64,000 nt of DNA. It comes from Bacteroidota bacterium (lineage in GTDB: Bacteria; Bacteroidota; Bacteroidia; Bacteroidales; JADFUO01). The notes under the pieces were generated by a model that worked only from the letters and a program-made list of their open reading frames with translations, did not search any database and was not told where the DNA came from. The stretch spans positions 306 to 64,305 of the forward strand of contig JAUXFX010000001.1 of the NCBI GenBank assembly GCA_030622635.1, given 5' to 3'. Shown in pieces: positions 16,347 through 28,999 of the stretch (positions within the stretch are counted from its first letter, which is position 1; the number at the start of each line of letters is the position of its first letter). The position numbers and the translations under genes are program-made.

Positions 16347-17075
16347 CTATTTACGATTTCCTAAAAAACGCAGCAAAAATAAGAATAAATTTATAAAATC
16401 AAGGTATAAATTTAAAGCTCCAATAATAGTTAGTTTTTTTGCCGGTTCAGCCCCGTATTGTAATCCACTTCCAATCCTTTTCAGCTTTTGAACATCATAA
16501 GCTGTAAGACCTGTAAAAACAAGGACTCCAATAAAACTGATAATATAATCCAAAGAGCTGCTATGCATAAAGAAATTCGCAACACTGGCAATTATTATCC
16601 CAATCAATCCCATAAACATAATTGAGCCGAATTTAGTGAGATCGGTTTTGGTAGTATAACCTACGAATGCCATTAAGCCAAACATGCCGGAAGTTACAAT
16701 AAATGTTAAAGTAATTGAACTGGCAGTATAAACAAGCAGAATAAAGCTTAAGCTCATTCCCATCAAAATGGCAAAAGCAATAAATAGCAATGATAATATT
16801 CCTGAAGATAATTTGCTAAAACCAAAGGACATCAGTAACACAAATCCGAATGGTGATAAAAACACTACCCAACCCAAAGTGTTCATACCTCCTGTTTCCG
16901 GATTTATTAAACTACCAATTAATTTGGGGTCCGATGCAAAAAAATATGATGTAGCTGCTGTAATTGCGAGTGCTAAAAACATCCACAAAAAAACATTTGC
17001 AACAAATGTGCGCGACATTGAAATCCCTTCCTGTTGCGATTGGGCTATATTGAAAGTGTTATTTTTTGTAAGCAT
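16347..17075 (-). CDS. BAX inhibitor-1/YccA family membrane protein
   Basis: 242 aa with about 7 TM helices and the basic C-terminal tail LRFLGNRK typical of the family. Confidence 0.75.
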   Translation of the reverse strand: MLTKNNTFNIAQSQQEGISMSRTFVANVFLWMFLALAITAATSYFFASDPKLIGSLINPETGGMNTLGWVVFLSPFGFVLLMSFGFSKLSSGILSLLFIAFAILMGMSLSFILLVYTASSITLTFIVTSGMFGLMAFVGYTTKTDLTKFGSIMFMGLIGIIIASVANFFMHSSSLDYIISFIGVLVFTGLTAYDVQKLKRIGSGLQYGAEPAKKLTIIGALNLYLDFINLFLFLLRFLGNRK

Positions 17076-17140
17076 TTTTGTATTATACTATTATCCTGTA
17101 AAATTTTATTTTTTTAGTAAAGTATTGGTTTTGTATTTAT

Positions 17141-17204
17141 CAGTTCTCAGTCTCCAGTCCTCAGTCTATTTTCGTTGACTGCCGACTAACTGTTACTGAC
17201 ACTG
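17141..17204. repeat. Syllable hairpin: (CAGTNNN)x4 arm and (NNNACTG)-type arm
   Basis: The arms are cagttctcagtctccagtcctcagtct ... gactgccgactaactgttactgacactg. Confidence 0.8.
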
Positions 17205-17307: not shown

Positions 17308-17931
17308 TTAATGTAATTTTGAACCTATTAAATGTATAAATTCCGCTCGGGTTTCCTGTCGTTTGAATGCACCTGTAAAATCAGATGTTGTAGTTACGGA
17401 GTTTTGTTTTTGAACGCCTCTCATTATCATACATAAATGTTGTGCTTCAATTACAACAGCCACACCCAGTGGTTTGAGCGTAGAATCAATAGCTTCTTTT
17501 ATTTGTGTTGTTAGTCTTTCCTGAACCTGCAACCGCCTGGCATAAGCTTCAACAACTCTTGCAATTTTACTTAAGCCTGTAATGTATTGGTTTGGGATAT
17601 ATGCAACATGTGCTTTACCAATAAAAGGTATCAAATGGTGTTCGCATAACGAAAATATTTCAATATTCTTTACAATTACCATTTCCCTGTAATCTTCTCT
17701 AAACATTGCCGATTTCAGGATTTCTACCGGGTCGTGTTCATAGCCCTGAGTCATGAACTGCATTGCTTTGGCAACTCTTAACGGCGTATCAAGCAAGCCT
17801 TCACGATTGGGATCTTCTTCAATCAATTTTAAGATTTCTTTGTAATAGCCACTTAACTTTTCCAAATTTTCAACATTATGGTTTTCTATCTTTTCATAAC
17901 TAAAAATATGATTATTCTTTTTTTTCATCAT
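17308..17931 (-). CDS. folE: GTP cyclohydrolase I
   Basis: 207 aa. It has CEHHLIPF and a [10 protein letters not shown] motif. Confidence 0.92.
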
Positions 17932-17998
17932 TAGTTTAATATTAAATTTTCAAGGCAACAAAATATTTTTGGGGCAAAATTAAGAAACTTATCAGGTA

Positions 17999-18118
17999 AA
18001 GCACCAAATAACAAATAACAAATAACAAATAAATTCGAAATATCAATGATCAAATGACCGAAACTGTTTTGGTCATTGAATTTTTGAACATTGTAATTTA
18101 TTTGATATTTGGTGCTTG
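17999..18118. repeat. Syllable hairpin: (AAATAAC)n arm, inner 25-nt palindrome, complementary arm
   Basis: The left arm aagcaccaaataacaaataacaaataacaaataaatt faces aatttatttgatatttggtgctt. Between them is the palindrome aatgaccgaaac-t-gttttggtcatt (18053-18077). Confidence 0.85.
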
Positions 18119-18254
18119 TCATCCATACGGACAAGTTTTGTAATTTTTAATATTTATTTAAACTTTCGGACTTTATAGACGGACTAAATAGCTTGAATTA
18201 ATAATCAATATAAATCCAATTAAATCCTTTTAACGTATTATCAATAAAAATATT

Positions 18255-18262
18255 TACTTTTG
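18255..18262 (+). promoter_or_regulatory. Bacteroidota -7 box TAnnTTTG (TACTTTTG) upstream of the antitoxin
   Basis: It lies 40 nt upstream of ATG 18302. An identical box sits at 26363-26370 in repeat copy 2. Confidence 0.4.
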
Positions 18263-18301
18263 TAATTGAAACTATAATATTAAACAAAAAACATAACATT
18301 T

Positions 18302-18508
18302 ATGAAAGGCATTAATTTTGTAACCAACGACAAGGGAGAAAAAATTGCATTACAATTAGATTTAAAAAATCCTGATGAAAAGATGATTGAATTAATTGAA
18401 GAAATTGAAGATATTATTGATGTGGATTTAAGGAAGAATAGTAGTACAAGAGATTATATTGAAATTAGAGAAGAATTGAAGGAAAAAGGAATTATAAGCA
18501 ATGCATAA
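18302..18508 (+). CDS. Putative antitoxin of the RelE/ParE module
   Basis: 68 aa and acidic. Its stop overlaps the toxin start by 8 nt. Confidence 0.55.
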   Translation: MKGINFVTNDKGEKIALQLDLKNPDEKMIELIEEIEDIIDVDLRKNSSTRDYIEIREELKEKGIISNA

Positions 18509-18761
18509 GGTTAAAATCAGCGAAGATGCAATAAAGGATCTTGCTAAAATCCCGCTTAGATATGCAAATAGAATTGATATTGAAATTCTTAAACTTGCTG
18601 AAGATCCACGACCACGGGAATGTGTTAAATTAAAAGGGAAACGGAATTTATATAGGATTAGAATTGGCATGTACAGAATTATTTATTCAATTCATGATGA
18701 CTGCCTTATTGTTAAAATAATTAAAATAGGTCAAAGAAAAGATATTTACAGGAAAATATAA
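18501..18761 (+). CDS. Type II toxin, RelE/ParE family
   Basis: 86 aa. The pattern KLKGKRNLYRIRIGMYRIIYSIHDDCLIVKIIKIGQRKDIY is the canonical RelE/ParE C-terminal pattern. Confidence 0.85.
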   Translation: MHKVKISEDAIKDLAKIPLRYANRIDIEILKLAEDPRPRECVKLKGKRNLYRIRIGMYRIIYSIHDDCLIVKIIKIGQRKDIYRKI

Positions 18762-18797
18762 CAAACTTAATAAAACATTCCATTTATCTTACCCAAA

Positions 18798-20897
18798 ATG
18801 ATAAAACGGGGCTTGAACATACTCATTCATCCTTTAACTCTCAGTTTGCTGATAAGCTGTATTATAATTTCTTTACTTCCTCCTGTATTTAATAAATACA
18901 AGGCTAAAATCAATGAGACAAGAAAAATTCATGAACCTGAAATCTTTTCATATTATGATTTGGACTCTGACGGTTTTAGTGAAGAAATCTTGTATTATGG
19001 CCCACCTGATAATTATCCTTCATTAATTGTAAGAAATAAAGGAAAAATTATTGATCAAAAGAATTTTGAGGGAGTTTTTACCCCAGGTGATTTTTTTATA
19101 TATTGCGATTACAATAGTGATTCTATTGCTGAAATATTTGTTTTAACAATTAAAAATGATTCAATTATCCTTACCGGTGTTAACCCATATAAGGTTGGGG
19201 AAACTCATTTCATAAAGTTATTCATTGACAAATGCAGTATGTATGATGGTAGATACGATTGCCATGCTCATTTCTGTGACTCACCTGATACTGATGAGAA
19301 CGGTTACAAGGAACTGGTTTTCGGAATAAATACAGGGAGGTCAAAACAACCAAGAAATCTATACTTGGTGGATATTTTCAATGACACAGTTATTAAATCG
19401 CCGGTAAGTGGCACTGCAATCCATATACCTGTAGCTTTTGATATAAATAATGACGGATACAATGAATATATGGGGAAAAGTTGTGCGCATGGAAACTTTT
19501 ATAGGGATTCAATAGATTATCCCGATACACATGCCTGGCTAATGGTATTAGACAGAAAAATGAATTTTTTATTTGAACCCAAAAAGTTTGGCCAGTACAA
19601 AACAATTATAGATGTAAAGCCATTTAGGCCATTTAAAACTAATTATCTTATTGTTTTACAAAAACACCAGGGGACAGAAAACATAGATAACAAGCTTATA
19701 TTGTTTGATTCTAATGGGAATGAAATCAAGGAAAGATTATTAGAAGATTTTAGTGTCATTGAAAATTCATTTCTTATGTCACGAGATAAAGTAAGATGTA
19801 ATGATTTATACTTGTTCCTAAATAATGGACAAATTGAGCAAATTGATTCGAATTTAAATATTGTTAGCAAAATTTCTCTACCGGATATTCAAAATGTAAG
19901 GCCTTTTCGTATTGATGCGGATTTAGATGGATTGGATGAATTTGTCTTCACTGCGCAAGATAAACAAGGTTTGATCATAACAAGAAATGATTTTACATTT
20001 CCTGTTAAATTGGAATTTATCAATAATATGAATGTATGGCCATATTTTTCTATTAAAAGGCAAGGATACGAAAAACCGAAACTTTATACTCAAATAGGCG
20101 GGCAAAGTTTTATTATAGAATACTCTAAAAATCCACTACATCCCCTTAAATACTTCATCTGGATTGGAATATATGTGGGTGTCTTTTTCTTCCTTTTTCT
20201 TTTACAAAAAGTACAACAGATCAGAGCAAAGCATAAATATGAAACAGAAAAGAAGATCGCCGAGCTGCAGCTTAAGTATGTAAAAACCCAGACTGACCCT
20301 CATTTCACTTTGAATATTATAAATTCATTAGGAACCTTATTTTACCAAAATGATCCGGATAAGGCAAACTATATTTTTGGTAAATATGCCCAAATGTTAA
20401 GAAATACTATTTTACGCTCTGACGATATTTCAATCTCTTTGTCCGAAGAAATTGAATATGTTGAAAATTTTCTGGATCTTGAGAAATTCAGTCTGAATAA
20501 TAAGTTTGATTATAAAATTGAGATAGCTAAAAATGTAAATCAGGATAATAAAGTACCAAAGATGCTTTTACATACTTTTGTTCAAAATGCGATAAAACAC
20601 GGAATCAGGCATTTAAAGACCAAAGGAGAATTAAATATCAGTTTGGAAGCAAGTAACAAAAATTACATTTTTACTATTAGTGATAATGGTGTTGGCAGGA
20701 TAAAAGCAAAAGAATATTCTAAATTAAGCACAGGAAAGGGATTGAAGATACTTGATCAAATATTAGAGCTTTACTATAATCTGGAAGGGATCAAGATAAA
20801 ATATGATATTGTTGATTTATATGATAATTTTGGGGATCCGGCAGGTACAAAAGTAATAATTAATGTACCTGTTAAAATTAACGTGAGTCCAGGATAA
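18798..20897 (+). CDS. Sensor histidine kinase: N-terminal TM, FG-GAP/VCBS-like beta-propeller sensor, TM, LytS/YehU-type His_kinase + GHKL ATPase
   Basis: 699 aa. There are five DxDxDG-like repeats (DLDSDGFSE, DYNSDSIAE, DTDENGYKE, DINNDGYNE, DADLDGLDE). A TM segment YFIWIGIYVGVFFFLFLL follows, then TDPHFTLNIINSL and ISDNGVG...GKGLK. Confidence 0.8.
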   Translation: MIKRGLNILIHPLTLSLLISCIIISLLPPVFNKYKAKINETRKIHEPEIFSYYDLDSDGFSEEILYYGPPDNYPSLIVRNKGKIIDQKNFEGVFTPGDFFIYCDYNSDSIAEIFVLTIKNDSIILTGVNPYKVGETHFIKLFIDKCSMYDGRYDCHAHFCDSPDTDENGYKELVFGINTGRSKQPRNLYLVDIFNDTVIKSPVSGTAIHIPVAFDINNDGYNEYMGKSCAHGNFYRDSIDYPDTHAWLMVLDRKMNFLFEPKKFGQYKTIIDVKPFRPFKTNYLIVLQKHQGTENIDNKLILFDSNGNEIKERLLEDFSVIENSFLMSRDKVRCNDLYLFLNNGQIEQIDSNLNIVSKISLPDIQNVRPFRIDADLDGLDEFVFTAQDKQGLIITRNDFTFPVKLEFINNMNVWPYFSIKRQGYEKPKLYTQIGGQSFIIEYSKNPLHPLKYFIWIGIYVGVFFFLFLLQKVQQIRAKHKYETEKKIAELQLKYVKTQTDPHFTLNIINSLGTLFYQNDPDKANYIFGKYAQMLRNTILRSDDISISLSEEIEYVENFLDLEKFSLNNKFDYKIEIAKNVNQDNKVPKMLLHTFVQNAIKHGIRHLKTKGELNISLEASNKNYIFTISDNGVGRIKAKEYSKLSTGKGLKILDQILELYYNLEGIKIKYDIVDLYDNFGDPAGTKVIINVPVKINVSPG

Positions 20898-20935
20898 ATA
20901 AAGAACATAATCGGGTAATTCGTTAAAAAATGGAT

Positions 20936-20983
20936 AATTAACCTAATTTCTAATTGATCTAATTGACCTAAAAAATGACCAAT
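20936..20983. repeat. 48-nt direct repeat, copy 1 (upstream of the four-helix-bundle gene)
   Basis: aattaacctaatttctaattgatctaattgacctaaaaaatgaccaat is identical base for base to 21379-21426. Confidence 0.95.
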
Positions 20984-21019
20984 TTAAAATGACCAATAAA
21001 TAAAAAATAATTAATTAAT

Positions 21020-21376
21020 ATGGAAAAGGACGATATAAAATATGATTTAGAAGAAAGAACAGCTAAGTTTGGAGAAGATGTTATAGAATTTTGTAAAAAA
21101 GTTCCAAGAGACCTGATAACAAATCCGCTAATCACACAGCTTGTTAAATCAGGTACTAGTGTTGGGGCTAATTATTGTGAAGCCGATGATGCAGAGAGTA
21201 AAAAAGATTTTAAACACAAAATAGGGATAGTTAAAAAAGAATCTCGGGAATCAAAGCACTTCATACGAATGATTGTTTTTGCTGTTCCTGAATTGAAAAA
21301 GGATGGACAACCATTATGGCAGGAAGCAAAAGAATTAAATTTAATATTCAATTCAATTTTTCATAAAGTGAAGTAA
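21020..21376 (+). CDS. Four-helix-bundle protein (23S rRNA intervening-sequence protein / Avd-like family)
   Basis: 118 aa. LVKSGTSVGANYCEADDAESKKDFKHKIGIVKKESRESKHFIRMI matches the family pattern (SxGANxxEA ... E..Et..wl). Confidence 0.85.
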   Translation: MEKDDIKYDLEERTAKFGEDVIEFCKKVPRDLITNPLITQLVKSGTSVGANYCEADDAESKKDFKHKIGIVKKESRESKHFIRMIVFAVPELKKDGQPLWQEAKELNLIFNSIFHKVK

Positions 21377-21378
21377 AA

Positions 21379-21426
21379 AATTAACCTAATTTCTAATTGA
21401 TCTAATTGACCTAAAAAATGACCAAT
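21379..21426. repeat. 48-nt direct repeat, copy 2 (starts 3 nt after the four-helix-bundle stop)
   Basis: Identical to 20936-20983; the period is 443 bp. Confidence 0.95.
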
Positions 21427-21474
21427 GTAATAATAACCAAAATTTAGACATTAGATTTTGGGATTTGATTAGAG

Positions 21475-21504
21475 CAATTAGATCAATTAGAGTAATTAGA
21501 AATT
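21475..21504. repeat. Imperfect inverted copy of the 48-mer core
   Basis: The reverse complement of caattagatcaattagagtaattagaaatt is aatttctaattactctaattgatctaattg. This matches ctaatttctaattgatctaattg (21386-21408 and 20943-20965) apart from a 9-nt extra syllable. Confidence 0.8.
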
Positions 21505-21546
21505 TAAAACATATTAGAGCAGTTATAATAAATTTAATGATCAACT

Positions 21547-22149
21547 ATGAAACAAATAACCTGCATAATACTTGATGATGAAAAAGAGGCAAGGGATAGA
21601 ATTGTAATACTTTTAAGTAAGTTTGAAGGTATTAAGATAATTGGCATTGAAGGAGAACCGGAAAAAGGCATTGATAGTATTACTTCAAAAATACCCGATT
21701 TAGTATTTATTGATGTTGAAATGCCAAGGTTAACCGGTTTTGATGTAGTACGTGAAGTCAGAAAAAATAATGTAAATCCAGATTTCATTTTTGTAACCGG
21801 ATATAATCAATATGCTATCAAAGCAATTAAAAAAGAAGCATTTGATTACCTCCTCAAACCGGTTGATATTGATGAATTAAATGAAACAATAAACAGATAT
21901 AAAAGTAGCATTTATACGCGTTTAAAAGAAAAAAAATCTAAACAAACTGATGTGCTCAGTAAGTTCTCTGAAAGGGAAATAGAAATAATAAAGTTAATTG
22001 CCGAATATAAAACAAGCAAGCAAATTTCTGAAAAATTATATATCAGTAAAAATACAGTTGATACCCACAGGAGAAACATTTTAGAAAAAGCAGGGCTTCA
22101 TAAAACTGCTGAATTGGTGGTATTTGCGAGGGAAAATGGGCTGGTATAA
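21547..22149 (+). CDS. Response regulator, REC domain + LuxR/NarL-type HTH
   Basis: 200 aa. It has ILDDE...DLVFIDVEMP...KP (REC) and a C-terminal FSEREIEIIKLIAEYKTSKQISEKLYISKNTVDTHRRNILEK. Confidence 0.85.
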   Translation: MKQITCIILDDEKEARDRIVILLSKFEGIKIIGIEGEPEKGIDSITSKIPDLVFIDVEMPRLTGFDVVREVRKNNVNPDFIFVTGYNQYAIKAIKKEAFDYLLKPVDIDELNETINRYKSSIYTRLKEKKSKQTDVLSKFSEREIEIIKLIAEYKTSKQISEKLYISKNTVDTHRRNILEKAGLHKTAELVVFARENGLV

Positions 22150-22315
22150 ATTTGTTTTAACTTTGTTTGTATTATTTATCTAAAATTAAATCTTTGTCAA
22201 ATATTAAACTATTTCAAGCCCAATGCGTGATGCAGATATAGCCGATACCGAAACACTTTTGAGTTGTAACATCAAAAAATTATTTACAAAAATTGAATTT
22301 CTGGTGTAAAACACT

Positions 22316-22323
22316 TATCTTTG
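22316..22323 (+). promoter_or_regulatory. TAnnTTTG box (TATCTTTG) upstream of hicB
   Basis: It lies 41 nt upstream of ATG 22364. Confidence 0.4.
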
Positions 22324-22363
22324 TAGAAATGATAAAACGGGATAATAAAAATAATCAATTGTT

Positions 22364-22570
22364 ATGGAATATACTGCAATTATAAATAATATTGAGGATT
22401 GGTGGGTAGGGTGGATTGAGGAGATTCCAGGTGTAAATTGCCAGGAAAAAACCCGAAGTAAATTATTAGAAAGCCTGAAAATAATCCTGAAAGAAGCCCT
22501 GGAATTTAACAGGCAAGATGCACTATCAGTTGCCGGAGAAGGTTATGAAGAAGAGAGAATAGCTGTATGA
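22364..22570 (+). CDS. hicB: HicB-family antitoxin (short form)
   Basis: 68 aa. MEYTAIINNIEDWWVGWIEEIPGVNCQEKTRSKLLESLKIILKEALEF matches the HicB N-domain pattern. Its stop overlaps the hicA start (ATGA). Confidence 0.7.
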   Translation: MEYTAIINNIEDWWVGWIEEIPGVNCQEKTRSKLLESLKIILKEALEFNRQDALSVAGEGYEEERIAV

Positions 22571-22761
22571 AAAGAAGCAAACTTCTTAAGTATCTGCGAA
22601 TAAATGGTTGCATATTATTACGTGAAGGAGGAAATCATTCGTGGTGGATAAACCCGGCACAAAATAAACGTTCTTCAATTCCACGACATAATGAAATTAA
22701 AAATGAATCTTACAGCAATAATCGAAAAATCAGAAGATGGTTGGTATGTCGGGCAAATTGA
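22567..22761 (+). CDS. hicA: HicA-family toxin with atypical C-terminus
   Basis: MKRSKLLKYLRINGCILLREGGNHSWWINPAQNKRSSIPRHNEIK is canonical HicA. The last 19 aa (NESYSNNRKIRRWLVCRAN) are encoded out of frame over the next hicB-like gene and do not resemble the usual C-terminal helix. Confidence 0.65.
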   Translation: MKRSKLLKYLRINGCILLREGGNHSWWINPAQNKRSSIPRHNEIKNESYSNNRKIRRWLVCRAN

Positions 22762-22897
22762 GGAGTTTCCAGCTGCAATATCACAGGGCAAAACAATAGA
22801 TGAACTGAAAGCGAATTTGATTGATGCTTTTATGCTGCTTTTAGAAACAAACAAAGAAAGTTATTTAGCAAATACACAATTAGTATGCGATTGCTGA
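22703..22897 (+). CDS. hicB: Second HicB-family antitoxin
   Basis: MNLTAIIEKSEDGWYVGQIEEFPAAISQGKTIDELKANLIDAFMLLLE is a classic HicB pattern. The track start 22691 is also possible. Confidence 0.65.
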   Translation: MNLTAIIEKSEDGWYVGQIEEFPAAISQGKTIDELKANLIDAFMLLLETNKESYLANTQLVCDC

Positions 22898-23398
22898 ATA
22901 ACATGTAACTTGCCATTTGATTAGAAATTAGTGCAATTAGATTAATTAGGTCAATTTCGTTTCAATCATTTAAAGTAATGTTAAAATTTTTAAGTTGTGA
23001 ACAGTTACAAATATAGTTTAATATTCCCTGACTCAAAAAAATCTGCAGGATATACGCCCCTTTGTTTAGTTGTGGATATATTATTCAAACACCCAATATC
23101 AAAAAAACAAATAACAACCCGCCGGGGTGCTGACAAGTTTAACCATTTAACAATTCAACCATTTAACTCCAGATACGCTCATTCTTCGCTATCGGGATCT
23201 CCGCTTCGCTCCGACATTCATCAATTTTAAAATCTAAATTTTAAAATCTAAAATCATAAATCACAAATCCCTCCATCCCCTTTTAATAGTATCAATTTAC
23301 CATTTTGATGGTATTGGAAGTTGGTATCATCTGGTTGTAATTTTGTTTCAGTTTATTTTAAATCAAATTATTTTATTAATCAAAAATAGGAGGTTATT

Positions 23399-25069
23399 AT
23401 GAAAAAAGTATTTTTTACTATTCTTGGAATCTTAGTTTTTTGTGGATTATTCGCACAGGAGATACCACAGAAAATATCTTATCAGGGTAAATTGCTTGAA
23501 AATGGCAACCCTGTAAACGGAACAAAAAGCATCACATTTACCATCAGTACGTGGAGCGAAACAAAAAGCGTTACAGTAAATAACGGGCTGTATTCAGTAA
23601 CACTTGGCGAAACAACGCCTATTCCAACAAGTATTTTTGATAATACTTCAAGTGTTACTTTGCAAATATCAGTTGAAGGTGTTACGCTTTCACCTCAAAC
23701 AGATATATTATCAGTTGCTTATGCTTATAAAGCTTATAAAGCAGAAAAATCTGTAGATGCAGAGAAAATAGCAGGTAATCCTGTATCAGGTACTCCAAGT
23801 ACAAATCAAGTATTAAAATGGAATGGTACTCAATGGGTGCCTAACACAGATTTAACTGGGGGTCCCCCAACAGGCACAGCGAGTGGTGATTTATCAGGGA
23901 ATTATCCAAATCCAAAAGTAATTGGCTTGCAGAACAAGCCTGTTTCAAGTTTAGCACCTTCTACAAATAAGGTATTAAAATGGGATGGATCACAATGGAA
24001 ACCTCAAATAGATGAAACTCTTAATGGTACTCAAGCGGGTGGTGATTTATCAGGGAATTATCCAAATCCAAAAGTAATCGGCTTGCAGAACAGGCCTGTT
24101 TCAAGTTCAACACCTTCTACAAACCAAGTGTTAACATGGAGTGGGAACCAATGGAAACCGTCAAATCCAACAGGCAGCAGTCTCTGGTCACAAAGTGGTA
24201 GCAACATCTTTTACAATTCTGGCAATGTTGGTATTGGAACTTCTAATCCATATGGAATCTTTGAAGTTTTTAGTACAAGCAATGTAGAAGAGTATGTAAC
24301 ATCAGGCTCTGCAACAGGTTCTGCTAGAACATGGTATTCGTCTGGTTCAGTAGGTTTTGGTAATTCGTGGAATGTTGGTATTAGAGGTGACTTGAATAAA
24401 GGATACGCTATTGAAAGTTATTCAGGAGGTTGGGCACCAAGATTGTTTATTACACAAGCAGGGAATGTTGGAATTAACACGTCAAATCCACAAGAACTCC
24501 TTAATGTAGCAGGGGGGACGATAGAAGTTTACCCGGCTACTGATGGTCAAAGAGGGATTAGGATTAGGTCTGCTGATCAAAGCGAAAATTTTATTCTTGA
24601 CATGAAAAATGATGGCACAATGCAAATAGGTGCAAATTCAGGCACTATGCAGTTATCTTCTACATTCGGAGTTGATTCACGCAACTTATCGGGTACATGG
24701 CGGCCCATGAGTGCATCTAGCTTCAATGTCCGGAGTTCAAGAAGTCTCAAGTCTAACATAAAATATATTGACCAATTCGGCACCGCATATTGGCTTGAGC
24801 AAATCTTACTAATGAAGCCTGCCAACTATATTTATAATTGGGAAGCTGAATCAACTCAATCTCGACTTGGTTTCATTGTAGAAGAATTACCCGAAGAATT
24901 AAAGGGGCAAGATGGTAAATCTGTTAACCTTTATGCACTAACAAGTGCTGGAATAGTAGGTATTAAAGGTTTGTATCTAATGTTGGAGAAACAGCAAGAA
25001 CTTATTAAAAGTTTACAGGAAGAAATAGAAGCATTGAAAAATAAGGAGGACAACCATGAAACCAATTAA
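23399..25069 (+). CDS. Secreted tail-fiber-like protein with C-terminal intramolecular-chaperone (peptidase S74-like) domain
   Basis: 556 aa with signal peptide MKKVFFTILGILVFCGLFAQ. It has 2.5 tandem repeats of GDLSGNYPNPKVIGLQN[KR]PVSS..PSTN.VL.W.G.QW.P. The C-terminus is SSRSLKSNIKYI...RLGFIVEELPEEL...VNLYALTSAGIVGIKGLYLMLEKQQELIKSLQEEIEALK. AGGAGG lies 5 nt before the ATG. Confidence 0.75.
   Translation: MKKVFFTILGILVFCGLFAQEIPQKISYQGKLLENGNPVNGTKSITFTISTWSETKSVTVNNGLYSVTLGETTPIPTSIFDNTSSVTLQISVEGVTLSPQTDILSVAYAYKAYKAEKSVDAEKIAGNPVSGTPSTNQVLKWNGTQWVPNTDLTGGPPTGTASGDLSGNYPNPKVIGLQNKPVSSLAPSTNKVLKWDGSQWKPQIDETLNGTQAGGDLSGNYPNPKVIGLQNRPVSSSTPSTNQVLTWSGNQWKPSNPTGSSLWSQSGSNIFYNSGNVGIGTSNPYGIFEVFSTSNVEEYVTSGSATGSARTWYSSGSVGFGNSWNVGIRGDLNKGYAIESYSGGWAPRLFITQAGNVGINTSNPQELLNVAGGTIEVYPATDGQRGIRIRSADQSENFILDMKNDGTMQIGANSGTMQLSSTFGVDSRNLSGTWRPMSASSFNVRSSRSLKSNIKYIDQFGTAYWLEQILLMKPANYIYNWEAESTQSRLGFIVEELPEELKGQDGKSVNLYALTSAGIVGIKGLYLMLEKQQELIKSLQEEIEALKNKEDNHETN
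23885..24146 (+). repeat. Intragenic tandem duplication, 156-nt period (52 aa)
   Basis: ggtgatttatcagggaattatccaaatccaaaagtaat[tc]ggcttgcagaaca[ag]gcctgtttcaagtt... at 23885 and again at 24041. Identity is high by eye over about 105 nt. A more diverged partial unit lies at 23771-23850. Confidence 0.85.
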
Positions 25070-25562
25070 AATACTTTCAATTGCTATATTTTTACTCTGC
25101 TTGAATAATTTCACTCAAGCCCAAAATTATAGCACTTTAGCTGAAGTGCTTTCATCTGGTGGTGGCGAATCCGTCGGGAGTAATTATTCAAATTTTGGGG
25201 TAATTGGTGAAACATTTGTAAGTTATTCTGTAACAGGTGGAAATTATAATACATCCTTTGGATTTCTATATGCATCTGCCATTATTATAGGGATTAACGA
25301 AATGATTTTTAATAATCAATTTATTAGAATATTTCCAAACCCATCAAATGATATAGTTTATATTAAAACAACCGAAACAGGTTTATTCATTAAAAATATT
25401 GAAATATTAAATGTGATCGGAAAATCAGTATATCAAAGAGTTTTGGATAATGCAAATGATTTAATTAAAATATCTGTAACTGATTTTCAACCAGGTTTTT
25501 ATTTTATTAAGCTACATACAAATAAAGGAGTAGTCTTAAATAAATTCATAATTAATCGGTAG
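25056..25562 (+). CDS. Small secreted protein with T9SS type A C-terminal sorting domain
   Basis: 168 aa with a signal peptide. The C-terminal IRIFPNPSNDIVYIKT...GKSVYQ...DFQPGFYFIKLHTNKGVVLNKFII is a Por secretion tail. The start overlaps the upstream gene by 14 nt. AAGGAGG lies 6 nt before the ATG. Confidence 0.8.
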   Translation: MKPIKILSIAIFLLCLNNFTQAQNYSTLAEVLSSGGGESVGSNYSNFGVIGETFVSYSVTGGNYNTSFGFLYASAIIIGINEMIFNNQFIRIFPNPSNDIVYIKTTETGLFIKNIEILNVIGKSVYQRVLDNANDLIKISVTDFQPGFYFIKLHTNKGVVLNKFIINR

Positions 25563-25583
25563 TATTTTATTTAGCGTAAAACT

Positions 25584-25619
25584 AGGCTATCTAAAAAGCA
25601 AGATAGTCTGGTTTTTTCT
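25584..25619 (+). terminator. Rho-independent terminator-like hairpin plus T-run
   Basis: ctaggctatct-aaaaagca-agatagtctgg is followed by tttttt, 22 nt after the stop at 25562. Confidence 0.5.
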
Positions 25620-25674
25620 TATTTTAAAAAAGAAATTGAAAGTGCGTGAAATAATAAATAACAAAGTAGATAAG

Positions 25675-26034
25675 ATGCAGATCACGGATATCATAAAAAC
25701 ATATCTGGATTGGTCTGCTTATTCCAAATCGCAAGATTACCAAGAGATGTTGAATATAACTATTCCCAATTCCAAGTTCTTTGAGATTTCAAATTTATGC
25801 AAAAAAAGCTGGGCTCTCGGTATAGATTGTTATTATGAGTTTAGTTCTGTTAAGGTCATTAAAATAATTAACACTCCGCATAGTGCATTGGTAAAAGGAG
25901 ATATAAGGTTAATTCAATCCAATAAAAAATTAAGTTTCAAAGGGAAATTCCAATCAAGCTGTTTGTTTGAAACAATTGATAATAAAGGAAATTCATGGAA
26001 ATTGAATGAACTTGGAATAGATTGGGAGCTTTGA
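25675..26034 (+). CDS. Hypothetical protein (no family recognised)
   Basis: 119 aa from ATG 25675 (the track start 25636 is TTG). I recognise no motifs. It is the last gene of the accessory segment. Confidence 0.4.
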   Translation: MQITDIIKTYLDWSAYSKSQDYQEMLNITIPNSKFFEISNLCKKSWALGIDCYYEFSSVKVIKIINTPHSALVKGDIRLIQSNKKLSFKGKFQSSCLFETIDNKGNSWKLNELGIDWEL

Positions 26035-26409
26035 GGTATATAGTGTTTGCAAGGACTATATAATACAAATTCGGGTCTGTTCATAAATTCAAACAATTTT
26101 TGTTACTGTTGACATAATATTTTTTGTTAAAAGTATTGAAACAGCATCAAAATCAAAACACACTTCTTAATTCGTTGTTCAAATGTTCAAATGTTCGTTA
26201 TTCAATTTTACATGAGGCTGAACAGTAACCAATTTTTTAAATTTGGTGCTTGTAATTTGTTATTTTTAATATTTATTTAAACTATCGGACTTTATGGACG
26301 GACTAAATAGCTTGAGTTAATAATTATAAAAATCCTTTTAACGTATTATCAATAAAAATATTTACTTTTGTAATTGAAACTATAATATTGAACAAAAAAC
26401 ATAACATTT

Positions 26410-26616
26410 ATGAAAGGCATTAATTTTGTAACCAACGACAAGGGGAAAAAAATTGCATTGCAATTAGATTTACAAAATCCTGATGAAAGGATGATTGAGT
26501 TAATTGAGGAAATTGAAGATATTATTGATGTGGATTTAAGGAAAAATGACAGTACAAGAAATTATCTTGTAATTAGAGAAGAGTTGAAGGAAAAAGGAAT
26601 TATCAGCAATTCTTGA
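26410..26616 (+). CDS. Orphan antitoxin (paralog of 18302-18508)
   Basis: 68 aa. MKGINFVTNDKGKKIALQLDLQNPDERMIELIEEIEDIIDVDLRKN... is near-identical to the first copy. Confidence 0.55.
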   Translation: MKGINFVTNDKGKKIALQLDLQNPDERMIELIEEIEDIIDVDLRKNDSTRNYLVIREELKEKGIISNS

Positions 26617-26680
26617 TGATCATCTAATTGTTAAAATAATTAAAATAGGTCAAAGAAAAGATATTTACCGGAAAATATAA
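26615..26680 (+). pseudogene. RelE/ParE toxin remnant (C-terminal 21 codons)
   Basis: Manual translation gives DDHLIVKIIKIGQRKDIYRKI*, matching the end of the intact toxin (HDDCLIVKIIKIGQRKDIYRKI). No start codon or N-terminal part remains. Confidence 0.7.
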
Positions 26681-26741
26681 CTAATTTAATAAAACCTTCC
26701 ATTTCTCTCATAGCAAGATAGTAAGAAAGTTGAAATTAAAT

Positions 26742-27764
26742 TCATTTAAAAACATCAAAACGAGTTCCTATCCAGAACCTTATCTGGTTCATGTTGTAAT
26801 TAAAATTTGTTTCTCCTATTTGTACCGGTGAAGCATTGAAGCCAAAAACACCACCAATCCCGACATAGAATTTATCGGAATTGTAACCCAATGCTCCTCT
26901 GCTTAACCATAATAAGGATACTTCCTCGCTTTTGTTAATACCTTCTTCTGTGTCATATTTGTAAGTTTGCAGGAATATACCGGGAATAAATGAATAATTT
27001 ATATAAAAATATTTTAGAAATACCACAGTGTATGAATAACCGGCAGATAAACCATAAGTAAAAAAAACACCTTTTATAATTTGTTCATAAGGATCAATAT
27101 TATATTTATCAATAATTGTCTGTGGAATAATGGATGAATCAGCTGATAATTTTAAATATACAAACGAAGGCATTAATATAATTGAACCTGAACTTTTTTT
27201 CTGCCTTTCGTTTTGGATGTATGATGCCCTGATTGAATGTTTTTTATAATTAAATATGTAATATAAAATAGCACTTGTAGAAAAAATATGCATATCCGGA
27301 CGTTGTGGGTATTTATCACCAGTATTCCAGCTTTGGAAAATATCGTCTGCGTTTTCAATATAAAAGTGTCTGTAATCCTGAAACGATAGTTCGGCAGCAA
27401 TTGCATTTCCATAAGCATTTATACGTAAGTCAATAACCTTACTTTTCCCTTTACTATCGTTTTTATTTGAACTAAAAGGATTCTTAACAGCTAATCCCAA
27501 ACCAAACCATTTGTAAAACCCGGCTATTCCGTTTTTAATATCTATATTGGGTCTATAATTTATTTTTTTTCCAAAATTTGTCGGGTTTATTGTAAAGCAG
27601 ATACTTTCGCTTAATAAATAAAATCTTGCTGTAAGTAAATCTTTATAATCGGCAATATATTCGGGATTAAATTTCGATGATTTTAGTGTATCTTTTTGTG
27701 ATGCAGAAACTATAAAATCGCATAAAATTAAAATCAATAAAATGATATAGCTAAATTGTTTCAT
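26742..27764 (-). CDS. Putative outer-membrane beta-barrel protein (possibly DUF4421-like)
   Basis: 340 aa with a signal peptide, alternating-hydrophobic strands, and a C-terminal aromatic residue (…RFDVFK). The family name is from memory only. Confidence 0.4.
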   Translation of the reverse strand: MKQFSYIILLILILCDFIVSASQKDTLKSSKFNPEYIADYKDLLTARFYLLSESICFTINPTNFGKKINYRPNIDIKNGIAGFYKWFGLGLAVKNPFSSNKNDSKGKSKVIDLRINAYGNAIAAELSFQDYRHFYIENADDIFQSWNTGDKYPQRPDMHIFSTSAILYYIFNYKKHSIRASYIQNERQKKSSGSIILMPSFVYLKLSADSSIIPQTIIDKYNIDPYEQIIKGVFFTYGLSAGYSYTVVFLKYFYINYSFIPGIFLQTYKYDTEEGINKSEEVSLLWLSRGALGYNSDKFYVGIGGVFGFNASPVQIGETNFNYNMNQIRFWIGTRFDVFK

Positions 27765-27801
27765 CTGTTTATATTTATTAAAAAATAATCATTCCCCAGT
27801 G

Positions 27802-27828
27802 TGAACCGACGGGTAACCCGTCGGTTCA
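27802..27828. terminator. Perfect 27-nt GC-rich palindrome
   Basis: tgaaccgacgggt-a-acccgtcggttca. It is downstream of the minus-strand bactofilin/AtpZ/membrane gene set. Confidence 0.45.
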
Positions 27829-27979
27829 TGTTCGTTTCATGTAAATTCCTTAAAAGCAATAAATTTCTTAATGCAAATATAATATTATCCTGTAATCACG
27901 AAATTTCGGGATTGATTTTTTAGCAAAGTATTGGTTTTTTGATTATCACTTAAGCTAATTTGTTTGTAGCTATGCTACG

Positions 27980-28372
27980 CTAAGTTGTTTTTCGGGTTTT
28001 TGAATATGAAAGTATGGATATTACTTCAAAAACAGTGTAAAAAATATATAAGATAAAAAATGTAATTATAAATGGAATTGCATCGGATCTGTTCAGAAGA
28101 ACATAAATTAATAACACTGCTATGTAAAGCATAAGTTTTAAAAAAGTTGCAAGCATAAAGTAGGTTGTAAACTTGCTGAATCTTTTTTCAGATGCTTTTA
28201 ATAAAACATAATGAACTACAAGTGTTACGGAAAGAAAAAATAAAAACAAGTATGGCAGTGCCGGAGTGATAGATTCGTAAGGTAAAAAATATCCGACAAT
28301 AAAACATATCAGTGCAAAAGCAACTGAAAAAATTATTATTCTTTTTAAAAAGTTGAGATAAACAGACTTCAT
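27980..28372 (-). CDS. Hypothetical 4-TM membrane protein
   Basis: 130 aa with four hydrophobic helices. Its position after the AtpZ-like gene resembles the small membrane ORF that precedes atpB in many Bacteroidota (from memory). Confidence 0.4.
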   Translation of the reverse strand: MKSVYLNFLKRIIIFSVAFALICFIVGYFLPYESITPALPYLFLFFLSVTLVVHYVLLKASEKRFSKFTTYFMLATFLKLMLYIAVLLIYVLLNRSDAIPFIITFFILYIFYTVFEVISILSYSKTRKTT

Positions 28373-28404
28373 TGCTCATTAATATTAGTTTTATATCAAA
28401 TTAG

Positions 28405-28626
28405 TTATTTCTTTTTTATAAGGTCTTTAATAACATAATAAATAGCTAAAATTACTGATAAAATAGCTAAAACAACTGTAAAAACAGGGAATTCCAATTT
28501 AATCAGTTTATCAAGTTCAATACCGCCAAATACACCAACGAGTATTATCACCAGCATTTGCACAGCGATAGTAGAATATCTGGCATAACTATCAAATGCT
28601 TTTTTCTTTGATTTTAGGTCCTTCAT
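28405..28626 (-). CDS. AtpZ/AtpI-family small membrane protein
   Basis: 73 aa. YARYSTIAVQMLVIILVGVFGGIELDK plus a second TM is the typical AtpZ pattern. Confidence 0.6.
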   Translation of the reverse strand: MKDLKSKKKAFDSYARYSTIAVQMLVIILVGVFGGIELDKLIKLEFPVFTVVLAILSVILAIYYVIKDLIKKK

Positions 28627-28999
28627 TTTTTAAAGGGAATTTATTATCTGATAATTTTGTTTCCCCCATATTACACGAACCGGAAAATTTTGCTCCTGGC
28701 TCAATTGCAAGTTTACCTGTTGTAACTTCCCCTGAAAATTTAGCCGAAGCTTTTAAAGAAAGTAGCTCAGCTACAGTTACATTTGCTTTTACCTTTCCTG
28801 AAATGTCGGCATTCTGGCATTTGATCTCTCCCTCAACATTTCCTGTAGAACCAACAACCACCTTGCCTTTTGAACTTATTGAACCTATTAAAGTACCATC
28901 AATTCTAAAATCACCGTTTGATTCAATATCACCTTTTACGGTAGTGTCGGCACCGAGTAAATTTCTGGAAGCGGTTTCATTAATATTATTTTTAGCCAT
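28592..28999 (-). CDS. Bactofilin (polymer-forming cytoskeletal protein)
   Basis: 135 aa. It has repetitive beta-helix motifs: VKGDIESNGDFRIDGTLIGSISSKGKVVVGSTGNVEGEI... Confidence 0.85.
   Translation of the reverse strand: MAKNNINETASRNLLGADTTVKGDIESNGDFRIDGTLIGSISSKGKVVVGSTGNVEGEIKCQNADISGKVKANVTVAELLSLKASAKFSGEVTTGKLAIEPGAKFSGSCNMGETKLSDNKFPLKNEGPKIKEKSI

What the first reader, a model, noticed from the sequence alone, without database searches (positions are those of the whole stretch)
18107..26709. 8.6-kb accessory mosaic bracketed by direct repeats of a RelE/ParE toxin-antitoxin module
18107-18790 contains a promoter-like box, a 68-aa antitoxin, an 86-aa RelE/ParE toxin and a 3' flank. 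It recurs in the same orientation at 26241-26709 with high identity by eye. Everything in between is non-housekeeping: a sensor kinase, the four-helix-bundle gene, a response regulator, hicB-hicA-hicB, a tail-fiber-like gene, a T9SS-tagged gene and an orphan ORF. The outer flanks are core genes (folE on one side, the porW/T9SS region on the other). No integrase or transposase is present. The segment therefore looks assembled and potentially excisable by homologous recombination between the TA copies, with the TA module acting as both a recombination scaffold and an addiction element.
Basis: partly seen in the sequence, partly recalled or inferred. Interest (0 to 1): 0.6.

Follow-up and report, generated by a model that had tools for sequence, protein, structure and literature searches.

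The report
Variable gene islet with duplicated RelBE module
An 8.7-kb block of accessory genes sits between two core genes of an uncultured Bacteroidales bacterium. It is bracketed by one intact and one toxin-deleted copy of a RelE/RelB-type toxin-antitoxin module. This is an ordinary recombination hot-spot islet, not a new kind of mobile element.

Summary
The repeat is real: 18137-18502 matches 26256-26610 (91%) and 18688-18789 matches 26607-26708 (89%). Copy B is not a toxin-antitoxin module. A 189-nt microhomology deletion removed toxin codons 1-63, leaving an intact 68-aa antitoxin and a toxin stub.

The block is truly accessory.
- Six contigs from close relatives (DUF4421 about 96% identical, where it could be measured) join window 18000 to 26682 through 17 nt.
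- Twenty family-level MAGs keep folE next to the right-flank genes.
- The inserted block is 18001-26681. Its codon usage is atypical. It has no integrase, transposase or tRNA.

Other lineages carry different cargo at the same site, for example caspase-like genes or a kinase variant with an IS200-like gene. All variants end in the same module or its scar.

The 28 nt after toxin A duplicate chromosomal flank and abut the exact start of the cargo. This is a head-to-tail junction of a [cargo + module] unit.

The two copies are old (antitoxin dS 0.30) and unequally diverged. This favours recombinational insertion from a diverged relative over a recent duplication.

No repeat-by-repeat deletion product was seen. 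Relatives lost DNA through at least four different illegitimate deletions. Any repeat-mediated deletion would leave an antitoxin behind, so the "addiction" argument fails.

Interest is low to moderate.

The parts
17308..17931 (-). folE (GTP cyclohydrolase I), the left core flank
   Evidence: Pfam GTP_cyclohydroI annotation on the identical protein. It is syntenic in 80 relatives.
17999..18122 (.). H_A, a 124-nt imperfect palindrome at the left end of the inserted block. It belongs to a dispersed repeat family.
   Evidence: Inverted repeats I1 and I17. Folds with z = -5.9. Copies lie at other loci in relatives L095 and L003. Contigs L001 and L003 end inside it.
18137..18301 (+). Copy A upstream region: tail of the dispersed repeat (18137-18205) plus the TA promoter/operator region (18222-18301)
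   Evidence: 94% and 98.8% identical to copy B. The promoter part is also conserved in lineage C and is re-used upstream of a hicB-like gene there.
18302..18508 (+). Antitoxin A (68 aa), from a small divergent RelB-like family
   Evidence: No direct Pfam or NCBIfam hit. Only 38 cluster representatives at E<=1e-3 among 1.84 billion proteins. 8 of 24 aligned relatives hit PF18506 RelB-like. A homologous antitoxin+toxin pair stands alone in L083.
18501..18761 (+). Toxin A (86 aa), RelE-type, intact
   Evidence: Pfam PF05016 at 49.7 bits. NCBIfam RelE_StbE at 26.1 bits, below the 27.9 cutoff. Best solved relatives are aRelE 1wmi and E. coli RelE 4v7k/4fxe.
18762..18789 (+). 28-nt copy of the chromosomal flank, which ends repeat A and abuts the cargo (the head-to-tail junction)
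   Evidence: 24/28 identical to 26681-26708, which is present in empty sites. Homology with lineage D begins at 18788.
18798..22149 (+). Cargo block 1: sensor histidine kinase (18798-20897), four-helix-bundle gene inside a hairpin (20936-21507), response regulator (21547-22149)
   Evidence: Pfam and NCBIfam hits. 93.7% identical to L100.
22364..22897 (+). hicB (22364-22570), hicA (22567-22761), second hicB-like gene (22691-22897) overlapping the hicA 3' end
   Evidence: HicA_toxin at 28.9 bits. UPF0150 at 23.2 bits, below cutoff. No hit for the first hicB. This segment is replaced in lineage D.
23399..25562 (+). Fibre-like protein with a C-terminal Peptidase_S74 chaperone (23399-25069) and a T9SS-tail protein (25056-25562)
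   Evidence: Pfam hits. Internal repeats 23800-24166. No phage match. The fibre gene is a mosaic compared with L100.
25636..26034 (+). Orphan ORF (132 aa). It lies upstream of the TA module or its scar in lineages C, D and L003.
   Evidence: No family hit. Homologues in L085 (90% nt), L100 (85% aa) and L003 (3' 47 codons).
26140..26409 (+). Copy B upstream region: degenerate H_B, repeat tail 26256-26324, promoter 26330-26409
   Evidence: H_B does not fold (z = +1.3).
26410..26616 (+). Antitoxin B (68 aa), intact, now without a partner toxin
   Evidence: ORF. 88% aa identity to A. dN/dS 0.18 and dS 0.30 against A. Same gene with the same right flank in an independent metagenome contig, L084.
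26607..26680 (+). Toxin B remnant: codons 64-86 only, with no start codon
   Evidence: Alignment of the two copies. 90.5% identical to A.
26681..26741 (.). Chromosomal spacer that is also present in empty sites. The right boundary of the inserted block is 26681|26682.
   Evidence: L090, L095, L096, L097, L099 and L004.
26742..27764 (-). DUF4421 gene, the right flank
   Evidence: Pfam PF14391. 96.1-96.3% nt identity to the empty-site relatives.

Best explanation
The thing is a strain-variable islet (window 18001-26681). It occupies a recombination hot spot in the spacer between folE and DUF4421 of an uncultured Bacteroidales lineage. Its constant feature across lineages is a right-end module: orphan ORF, hairpin element, then a RelB-like/RelE toxin-antitoxin pair next to DUF4421. 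The cargo to the left of that module differs between lineages.

In this genome the layout is repeat A, then 7.4 kb of cargo, then repeat B. The layout was most likely made by recombination, not by a dedicated recombinase (inferred). A [cargo + TA module + 28 nt of flank] segment from a diverged relative was joined head to tail. It then entered the resident TA module by a single homologous crossover (Campbell-type integration or an equivalent unequal exchange).

That history would leave copy A as resident 5' part plus incoming 3' part, and copy B as incoming 5' part plus resident 3' part. Copy B later lost its toxin by a 189-nt microhomology deletion.

Today only copy A can be a working RelBE module. 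Antitoxin B is an extra, partnerless antitoxin. The two copies are a possible substrate for RecA-dependent deletion, but not an evident one. The locus is eroding by illegitimate deletions.

Shown: the anatomy, the boundaries, absence from relatives, the junction, and the unequal divergence of the copies. Inferred: the circular or unequal-exchange intermediate, and the direction of events.
For: Repeat and deletion in copy B.

Empty sites:
- Window 18000 is joined to 26682 through 17 nt in L090, L095, L096, L097, L099 and L004.
- DUF4421 of L090, L095-L097 and L099 is 96.1-96.3% identical to the window's.
- 20 more distant MAGs have folE 47-581 nt from the right-flank genes.

Independent support for both junctions: L002 (17524-20094, 99.5%) and L084 (26116-29394, 99.7%), both from JGI metagenome 3300040951.

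Same right-end module with other cargo:
- Lineage C, L085-L089: caspase-like genes, orphan ORF, antitoxin::toxin fusion.
- Lineage D, L100: kinase cargo with a Y1_Tnp gene, orphan ORF, H/T scar.
- L003: orphan 3' end plus an A-type hairpin next to folE.

Head-to-tail junction: the 28 nt after toxin A match the chromosomal flank found in empty sites. Homology to lineage D cargo starts at 18788, within 3 nt of where homology to copy B stops.

Unequal histories of the two copies:
- Unique changes relative to lineage C are A 2 / B 13 in the 5' block and A 4 / B 1 in the 3' block. Fisher p = 0.014. Relative-rate chi-square 8.07, p = 0.0045.
- Antitoxin dS is 0.30 for A-B, 0.16 for A-C and 0.34 for B-C, against 0.135-0.27 for core genes between lineages. 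dN/dS is about 0.2.

Atypical codon usage: pooled bias 0.21 against 0.099 +/- 0.013 for core subsets.

No recombinase, tRNA, phage or defence signal.

The general pattern of hot spots that lack mobile elements and turn over by homologous recombination is described in PMC5635113.
Against: - The mosaic argument rests on three sequences and few sites: 15 and 5 informative changes. A rate change in copy B, or gene conversion, could mimic it.
- Copy B, not copy A, sits at the position that matches the single module of lineages C and D. The model therefore needs the orphan ORF and hairpin left of B to be incoming DNA as well.
- The hairpin of B is only about 60% like that of A, although the adjacent 69 nt are 94% identical.
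- No donor, circle or recombinant has been observed.
- The left ends of the islands in lineages C and D, and in the L005/L091 MAG, are unknown because the contigs stop there.
- It is not settled whether the empty site is ancestral or a clean loss. The more distant L091-L093 carry a module scar.
- The internal continuity 20094-26116 rests on the window contig alone.
Confidence: 0.55

Rival explanations
1. In-situ tandem duplication. A [cargo + module + 28 nt] unit was duplicated head to tail by unequal sister-chromosome exchange at a 3-4 nt microhomology. Most of the first unit's cargo was then deleted, leaving repeat A next to folE. Both copies are native and have diverged in place.
For: - The head-to-tail junction at 18789|18790 is exactly what a tandem duplication produces.
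- L003 has the 3' end of an orphan ORF and its spacer directly upstream of an A-type hairpin. Copy A was therefore once preceded by the same genes as copy B.
- Deletions are frequent at this locus.
Against: - Copies made in place should be equally distant from lineage C. They are not: 2 against 13 unique changes, p = 0.0045. The excess includes synonymous sites.
- An A-B dS of 0.30 is at or above the deepest core-gene divergence in the clade. The duplication would have to be very old, yet the structure is seen only in this species.
Confidence: 0.2
2. Stacking of two related, non-autonomous elements at a specific 28-nt site. Each element ends in orphan-hairpin-RelBE and inserts just left of the sequence TAATTTAATWAAACMTTCCATTTCTCTCAT. 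A recombinase encoded elsewhere would move them. Copy A would be the remnant of an older element and copy B the end of the newer one.
For: - The 28-nt sequence occurs once in empty sites and twice here, at the right end of each unit.
- The cargo's left end is the same in the window and in lineage D.
- Different cargos share one right-end module.
- Independent arrival would explain the large A-B divergence.
- Lineage D carries a Y1_Tnp gene, and the hairpin is a dispersed repeat.
Against: - No recombinase lies in or near the island.
- No third copy of the 28 nt lies at the left boundary.
- The 17 nt that lie left of the site in empty genomes are missing from the window.
- The 66 nt upstream of the lineage D cargo do not convincingly resemble the 28-nt site.
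- 28 AT-rich nucleotides are weak evidence for an attachment site.
Confidence: 0.12
3. The two toxin-antitoxin copies are a working recombination scaffold. The 8-kb segment currently excises and re-inserts between them, and the toxin-antitoxin pair keeps it in the population by addiction.
For: - Direct repeats of 366 and 102 nt with identical runs of up to 60 nt.
- The island is present or absent among close relatives. The last 114 nt of DUF4421 in lineage D are identical to those of the empty-site group.
- Toxin-antitoxin modules are known to stabilise islands such as SGI1 (PMC5006074, listed; review PMC12548467, listed).
Against: - Copy B has no toxin.
- Either crossover product keeps an antitoxin gene with its promoter, so cells that lose the cargo are not killed (inference from the anatomy).
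- No repeat-by-repeat product appears among about 20 related contigs. Every shortened variant uses another junction.
- The copies are 8-9% diverged and not homogenised.
- The toxin was lost at least four separate times in the clade.
Confidence: 0.08
4. Assembly artefact. Two strain alleles of one locus (one with an intact module, one with cargo and a deleted module) were concatenated by the assembler through shared sequence.
For: - The window comes from a metagenome-assembled contig.
- Related contigs often break at this locus (L001, L003, L004, L100, L101).
Against: - An independent assembly from JGI 3300040951 contains folE, copy A and the kinase on one contig (L002). It also contains copy B and DUF4421 on another (L084). 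These are 99.5-99.7% identical to the window, not 100%.
- The two copies differ at 8-9% of positions, enough to be resolved.
- The contig breaks coincide with the 124-nt palindrome.
Confidence: 0.05

Closest known systems
Chromosomal hot spots of horizontal transfer that lack mobile-element genes and turn over by homologous recombination (Oliveira et al. 2017, PMC5635113; 'flexible genomic islands')
   Same: - One intergenic spot between conserved genes holds different accessory genes in closely related genomes.
- There is no integrase, transposase or tRNA.
- Empty and occupied alleles occur at about 96% flank identity.
- Codon usage is atypical.
   Different: - The islet has a constant internal end module (orphan-hairpin-RelBE). 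In one species a second copy of that module sits at the other end.
- Recombination inside the islet, and not only in the flanking core genes, seems to have shaped it.
- Recombination in the flanking genes themselves was not tested.
RelBE type II toxin-antitoxin systems, closest to archaeal aRelE-aRelB (PDB 1wmi) and E. coli RelE
   Same: - An 86-aa toxin of the RelE/ParE fold whose best solved relatives are RelE proteins.
- Basic and tyrosine residues align with RelE K52, K54 and R61 (shown). The equivalents of R81 and Y87 were placed by eye.
- A small acidic antitoxin lies upstream with an 8-nt overlap.
- Relatives of the antitoxin hit the RelB-like Pfam family.
   Different: - The antitoxin itself matches no curated family and belongs to a very small group.
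- The toxin falls just below the NCBIfam RelE_StbE cutoff.
- No activity has been tested.
Toxin-antitoxin-stabilised islands and cassette arrays (sgiAT of SGI1, PMC5006074; toxin-antitoxin cassettes in Vibrio superintegrons; from my own knowledge for the latter)
   Same: A toxin-antitoxin pair sits inside a block of dispensable genes.
   Different: - Those systems protect against loss because loss removes both genes. Here repeat-mediated loss always leaves an antitoxin.
- There is no integrase or attC. The attC covariance model was not run.
- The toxin is being lost repeatedly in the clade.
Orphan antitoxins / anti-addiction modules (reviewed in PMC7354431)
   Same: Copy B is an intact, purifying-selected antitoxin gene (dN/dS about 0.2) without a toxin. 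It lies in the same genome as a homologous intact pair.
   Different: - Cross-neutralisation is untested.
- B may simply be a recent decay product, because most of its divergence could predate the deletion.
Campbell-type or homology-facilitated integration of foreign DNA (known from plasmid integration and natural transformation; from my own knowledge)
   Same: A repeat-unique-repeat layout in which each repeat looks like a hybrid of a native-like half and a diverged half.
   Different: No circular intermediate or donor has been seen. The evidence is statistical and thin.

Membership tests
Type II toxin-antitoxin, RelE/ParE superfamily (copy A) | Toxin with the RelE/ParE domain above the curated threshold | tested here: met
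   PF05016 at 49.7 bits against a cutoff of 23, covering residues 4-83. Nine RelE-type PDB matches.
Type II toxin-antitoxin, RelE/ParE superfamily (copy A) | Small antitoxin gene directly upstream, co-oriented and overlapping | tested here: met
   18302-18508 and 18501-18761 overlap by 8 nt. The same pairing occurs in the distant locus L083.
RelE/StbE mRNA interferase subfamily (TIGR02385) | Score above NCBIfam's curated cutoff | tested here: not met
   26.1 bits against a cutoff of 27.9. It is close to the threshold, so the toxin works like RelE by resemblance only.
RelE/StbE mRNA interferase subfamily (TIGR02385) | RelE catalytic residues (E. coli K52, K54, R61, R81, Y87) | tested here: inconclusive
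   The pairwise alignment places R52, R54 and R59 opposite K52, K54 and R61. R79 and Y83 are plausible equivalents of R81 and Y87, but that alignment stops at residue 80.
RelB-like / Phd-YefM antitoxins | Antitoxin matches the family profile | tested here: inconclusive
   The window antitoxins have no hit at E<=0.01. 8 of 24 aligned relatives hit PF18506 and 3 hit PF02604.
Type II toxin-antitoxin (any) | Toxin arrests growth and the antitoxin neutralises it | not testable with these tools
   This needs expression experiments.
Type II toxin-antitoxin (copy B, 26241-26709) | Presence of a toxin gene | tested here: not met
   Toxin codons 1-63 are deleted. Only codons 64-86 remain, with no start codon.
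Integrative mobile element (ICE/IME/prophage-type genomic island) | Integrase or other recombinase gene in the element | tested here: not met
   No such domain in any island ORF. A relative's version has a Y1_Tnp gene that is absent here.
Integrative mobile element (ICE/IME/prophage-type genomic island) | Attachment-site repeats at both outer ends, with one copy in the empty site (often a tRNA 3' end) | tested here: inconclusive
   There is no tRNA. A 28-nt sequence occurs once in empty sites and twice here, but the second copy is internal (18762-18789) and not at the left boundary.
Integron / attC cassette array | IntI integrase and attC sites between cassettes | tested here: not met
   There is no integrase. 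The hairpins lie only beside the TA copies and the four-helix-bundle gene, not between all genes. The attC covariance model was not available.
Hot spot / flexible genomic island without mobile-element genes | Same site between conserved core genes, with different gene content in close relatives including empty alleles | tested here: met
   Empty alleles are L090, L095-97, L099 and L004. Kinase cargo is in the window and L100. Caspase-like cargo is in L085. Truncated forms are L003 and L094.
Hot spot / flexible genomic island without mobile-element genes | Raised homologous recombination in the flanking core genes | not tested
   The only hint is that the last 114 nt of DUF4421 in L100 are identical to those of the empty-site group, while its island is 94% like the window's.

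The most novel reading that the evidence does not exclude
A family of integrase-less islets in these Bacteroidales shares a constant end module: orphan ORF, REPIN-like hairpin, then a RelBE pair with an almost invariant promoter. This module would serve as the homology anchor through which cargo blocks are exchanged between species-level lineages and stacked head to tail. The toxin-antitoxin module would then be the recombination handle of a mobile unit that needs only host RecA.
Probability: 0.12. Interest if true: 0.55.

Novelty: new member of a known kind. Interest (0 to 1): 0.3.

Why it matters
The locus is a normal recombination hot spot with a decaying RelBE module. It is not a toxin-antitoxin-driven excisable element.

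The locus is still useful in three ways.
- It is a compact natural series for studying how chromosomal toxin-antitoxin modules erode. It includes an intact pair, an orphan antitoxin, an in-frame antitoxin::toxin fusion, scars and empty sites.
- It can show how accessory genes turn over at one site without any recombinase.
- If the head-to-tail junction and the hybrid pattern of the two copies hold up with more genomes, it would be a documented case of a toxin-antitoxin module acting as the homology patch for integrase-free island insertion.

Tried and rejected
- **Metagenome scan with the antitoxin.** It returned only a 46%-identical pair, L083.
- **Searches with no result.** These were the viral scans for the TA promoter and toxin, the phage tblastn with the fibre-like protein, PADLOC, Rfam on 15-30 kb (three sub-threshold chance hits only) and tRNA search.
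- **Palindromic motif GTCCRTAYGGAC.** I saw it near several junctions, but it is not enriched: 3 found against 2.1 expected.
- **Apparent 5-bp target duplication at 26746-26750 in lineage C.** This is an alignment overlap. It is caused by the window's own deletion of about 45 nt at the DUF4421 end.
- **PDB matches of the antitoxin to designer PPR proteins.** These are repeated weak matches to one short helix and are spurious.
- **"Copy A is closer to lineage C than copy B is" as a tree topology.** Three sequences have only one unrooted tree. I used unique-change counts and a relative-rate test instead.
- **Integron/attC reading.** Rejected because there is no integrase and no hairpin between most genes. 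No formal attC model was run.
- **GC content as a sign of foreignness.** It is uninformative here: 31.0% in the islet against 32.3% overall.
- **The ORF at 17931-18134.** It is spurious and overlaps the palindrome.

Full report
**1. The observation**

- Self-comparison finds 18137-18502 matching 26256-26610. This is 91% identical over 366 columns, including an 11-nt gap.
- It also finds 18688-18789 matching 26607-26708 at 89%. No other copy exists in the 64 kb.

Copy A carries a 68-aa ORF (18302-18508). It overlaps by 8 nt an 86-aa ORF (18501-18761) that scores 49.7 bits on Pfam ParE_toxin, against a cutoff of 23.

Copy B is shorter because 189 nt are missing between two CAAT tetranucleotides.
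- The deletion removes the antitoxin's last codon and stop, and toxin codons 1-63.
- The antitoxin frame closes after one altered residue, giving an intact 68-aa ORF at 26410-26616 that is 88% identical to A.
- Only toxin codons 64-86 remain, with no start codon.

So the repeat is confirmed, but "direct repeats of a TA module" is only half right.

**2. What the toxin-antitoxin pair is**

- The toxin's best solved relatives are RelE proteins: Pyrococcus aRelE 1wmi, E. coli RelE 4v7k/4fxe and others. Basic residues align with RelE K52, K54 and R61.
- It falls just under NCBIfam's RelE_StbE cutoff, at 26.1 against 27.9 bits.
- The antitoxin matches no curated family. It belongs to a very small group, with 38 cluster representatives at E<=1e-3 among 1.84 billion proteins.
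- 8 of 24 aligned relatives hit Pfam RelB-like, and 3 hit Phd/YefM.
- A 46%-identical antitoxin followed by an 86-aa RelE-like gene stands alone between housekeeping genes in an unrelated metagenome contig, L083.

The pair is therefore a genuine, conserved RelBE-type module.

**3. The block is accessory, and its exact limits**

A scan of one genome per species with the folE protein returned 80 loci.
- In 20 family-level Bacteroidales MAGs (folE 74-82% identical), folE lies 47-148 nt from the homologue of the window's 130-aa ORF at 27980. In one case the gap is 581 nt. In L006 the neighbour is DUF4421 instead.
- None of these loci has a homologue of any island gene nearby.

Closer relatives were reached through the DUF4421 protein cluster.
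- Five contigs from different assemblies (L090, L095, L096, L097, L099) and the short L004 join window position 18000 to position 26682 through the 17 nt ATGCAGTTAATTAGGAA.
- Their DUF4421 genes, measured in L090, L095-L097 and L099, are 96.1-96.3% identical to the window's.

The inserted block is therefore 18001-26681.
- It starts at the left end of a 124-nt palindrome and ends one base after the stop codon of the toxin remnant of copy B.
- Its pooled codon usage deviates from the window's core genes about twice as much as any random core subset: 0.21 against 0.099 +/- 0.013, with a maximum of 0.137. GC content does not differ.
- No integrase, transposase, tRNA, Rfam family, defence-system protein or phage similarity was found.

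**4. Is the arrangement real?**

An independent metagenome assembly (JGI 3300040951) holds folE, copy A and the kinase on one contig (L002, window 17524-20094, 99.5%). It holds copy B, DUF4421 and the downstream genes on another (L084, window 26116-29394, 99.7%). Both outer junctions and the junction of copy A with the cargo are therefore reproduced. The interior 20.1-26.1 kb rests on the window contig alone.

**5. The locus in other lineages**

This comparison changes the picture.
- **Lineage C** (L085-L089, five samples). It has caspase-like genes, then a homologue of the orphan ORF (90% nt), then a single module. In that module, antitoxin codons 1-55 are fused in frame to the last eight toxin codons (protein P0003). 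Next comes the chromosomal flank, then an inserted hicB-like gene driven by a second copy of the TA promoter, then DUF4421.
- **Lineage D** (L100, L101). One contig carries kinase, four-helix-bundle gene and regulator (93.7% to the window). It then has an 87-aa ORF, a Y1_Tnp (IS200/RAYT-like) gene, DUF433, extra T9SS genes and a fibre gene only 57% identical. After those come the T9SS gene and the orphan ORF, a hairpin/tail scar with the module deleted, the hicB-like gene and DUF4421.
- **L091-L093** have the same scar.
- **L094** keeps the hairpin and tail. It has lost everything from 18227 to the DUF4421 spacer through a 10-nt AATTAAATCC microhomology.
- **L003** is the closest relative by folE (98% aa). 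It joins window 17994 directly to 25909, which is the last 47 codons of the orphan ORF. It continues through the spacer into a hairpin identical to H_A apart from a nested insert, and the contig ends there.

Three conclusions follow.
- The site is a hot spot with variable cargo.
- Its constant element is the right-end module orphan-hairpin-RelBE.
- The toxin gene has been removed by at least four different deletions: copy B, lineage C, the L091/L100 group and L094.

**6. The junction that explains the bracket**

- The last 28 nt of repeat A (18762-18789) are not part of the toxin gene. They match 26681-26708 at 24 of 28 positions. That sequence is chromosomal, because the empty sites have it.
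- Homology between the window and lineage D begins at 18788. Homology between copy A and copy B ends at 18789-18791. The two breakpoints overlap in 3-4 nt, TCTTA/CTTA.
- The right end of a [cargo + module + 28 nt] unit is thus joined to the left end of the same kind of unit.
- This is the signature of a head-to-tail join, made either by circularisation or by unequal exchange. The repeat-unique-repeat layout follows from it.

**7. How old are the copies, and are they equivalent?**

- Synonymous divergence of the two antitoxin genes is 0.30, with dN/dS 0.18. Core genes of the sampled lineages differ by dS 0.135-0.27.
- Relative to lineage C, the 247-nt 5' block has 2 changes unique to A and 13 unique to B. 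The relative-rate chi-square is 8.07, p = 0.0045. The 55-nt 3' block has 4 unique to A and 1 unique to B. Fisher's test across the two blocks gives p = 0.014.
- The promoter (18222-18301) differs at only 1 of 80 positions, and it is equally conserved in lineage C.

The copies are thus not a recent duplication and have not been homogenised. Each looks like a hybrid of a native-like half and a diverged half.

This is what a single crossover between a resident module and an incoming circular [cargo + module] segment from a diverged relative would give. I favour that model, but the counts are small. An old in-situ tandem duplication with a rate change in B remains possible. L003 shows that copy A, too, was once preceded by an orphan ORF and spacer. 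Both models accommodate that.

**8. How it works now**

- Only copy A can be an active RelBE pair.
- Identical runs of 60, 54, 42 and 35 nt make RecA-dependent deletion between the copies possible.
- A crossover in the 5' block would leave a chimeric antitoxin with the deleted toxin of B in the chromosome.
- A crossover in the 3' block would leave the whole of module A.
- In both cases an antitoxin gene with the conserved promoter stays behind. The module therefore cannot punish loss of the cargo by this route (inference from the anatomy).
- None of the related contigs fetched shows the expected folE-repeat-DUF4421 product. All shortened forms use other junctions.

The "excisable, addiction-stabilised" reading is therefore not supported, although excision cannot be excluded without reads.

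**9. Comparison with what is known, and novelty**

The locus fits the described class of chromosomal hot spots. These lack mobile-element genes and diversify through host recombination (PMC5635113). It carries a RelBE module of a rarely seen antitoxin subfamily.

It fails the defining tests for an integrase-type island and for an integron. Details are in the membership table.

The orphan antitoxin B resembles the "anti-addiction" idea discussed for chromosomal antitoxins (PMC7354431, listed), but that was not tested here.

I rate it a new member of a known kind. Its interest is modest. It lies mainly in the clean series of toxin-antitoxin decay states, and in the possible use of the module as a homology patch for integrase-free insertion.

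Noticed in passing
window 20936-21507: The PF05635/TIGR02436 four-helix-bundle gene (21020-21376) lies inside a long hairpin between the histidine kinase and its response regulator. The left arm is at 20936-21008 and is repeated at 21379-21451. The right arm is at 21458-21507. The 21379-21510 hairpin folds with z = -7.85. This resembles the arrangement of 23S-rRNA intervening sequences, but here it is in an mRNA operon. The same arrangement is conserved in lineage D (L100 2220-2800). Further copies of the hairpin lie at 22898-22956 and beside hicB-like genes in L087, L091 and L100.
   Followed up: partly
window 17999-18205; L095 4166-4383 and 7753-7879; L003 3139-3200: The 124-nt palindrome and its 69-nt tail at the left of the TA module form a dispersed, REPIN/MITE-like repeat in close relatives. 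In L095 one copy borders a lipase-gene insertion after fabD. Contigs L001 and L003 end inside the palindrome. A Y1_Tnp (IS200/RAYT-like) gene sits in the related island L100 (3846-4319), but none is in this window.
   Followed up: partly
L085 8139-8330 (also L086-L089): Protein P0003 is an in-frame fusion of antitoxin residues 1-55 to the last eight toxin residues. It was found in five metagenome samples and is an independent route of toxin loss.
   Followed up: yes
L087 695-765 (matches window 18218-18287): The TA promoter segment is re-used, at 90% identity, directly upstream of a hicB-like gene. That gene is inserted between the TA flank and DUF4421 in lineage C.
   Followed up: partly
window 26730-26745: The window's DUF4421 gene is 340 aa rather than 345 aa. 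About 45 nt present in L090 and L087 are missing here, including the last five lysine codons.
   Followed up: partly
window 22567-22897: The hicA ORF matches the HicA profile only to residue 45. Its 3' end is overlapped for 71 nt by a second hicB-like ORF (22691-22897). This looks like a fusion junction that truncated hicA. The whole hic segment is replaced by DUF433 and other genes in lineage D.
   Followed up: partly
window 23399-25069: The fibre-like gene has internal 156-162-nt repeats (23800-24166). It has a weak sub-threshold hit to the N-terminal domain of Bdellovibrio mosaic adhesive trimer fibres. Compared with lineage D it is a mosaic: the N-terminal 337 aa are 57% identical and the rest is different. 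It has no phage match.
   Followed up: partly
window 16347-17075: The Bax1-I family gene between fabD and folE is itself variable. It is absent from L005, L095 and many family-level relatives.
   Followed up: no
window 17084-17166 and 27878-27951: A sequence of about 75 nt is shared (about 74-86% identity) by the regions upstream of the Bax1-I gene and of DUF4421. It may be a common promoter or leader.
   Followed up: no
L091 9095-9472; L095 813-1178: Relatives carry additional PF05635 (bAvd-like) four-helix-bundle genes inserted between the AtpI-like, 126-aa and DUF4421 genes, where the window has none. These genes are therefore presence/absence polymorphic in the clade.
   Followed up: no
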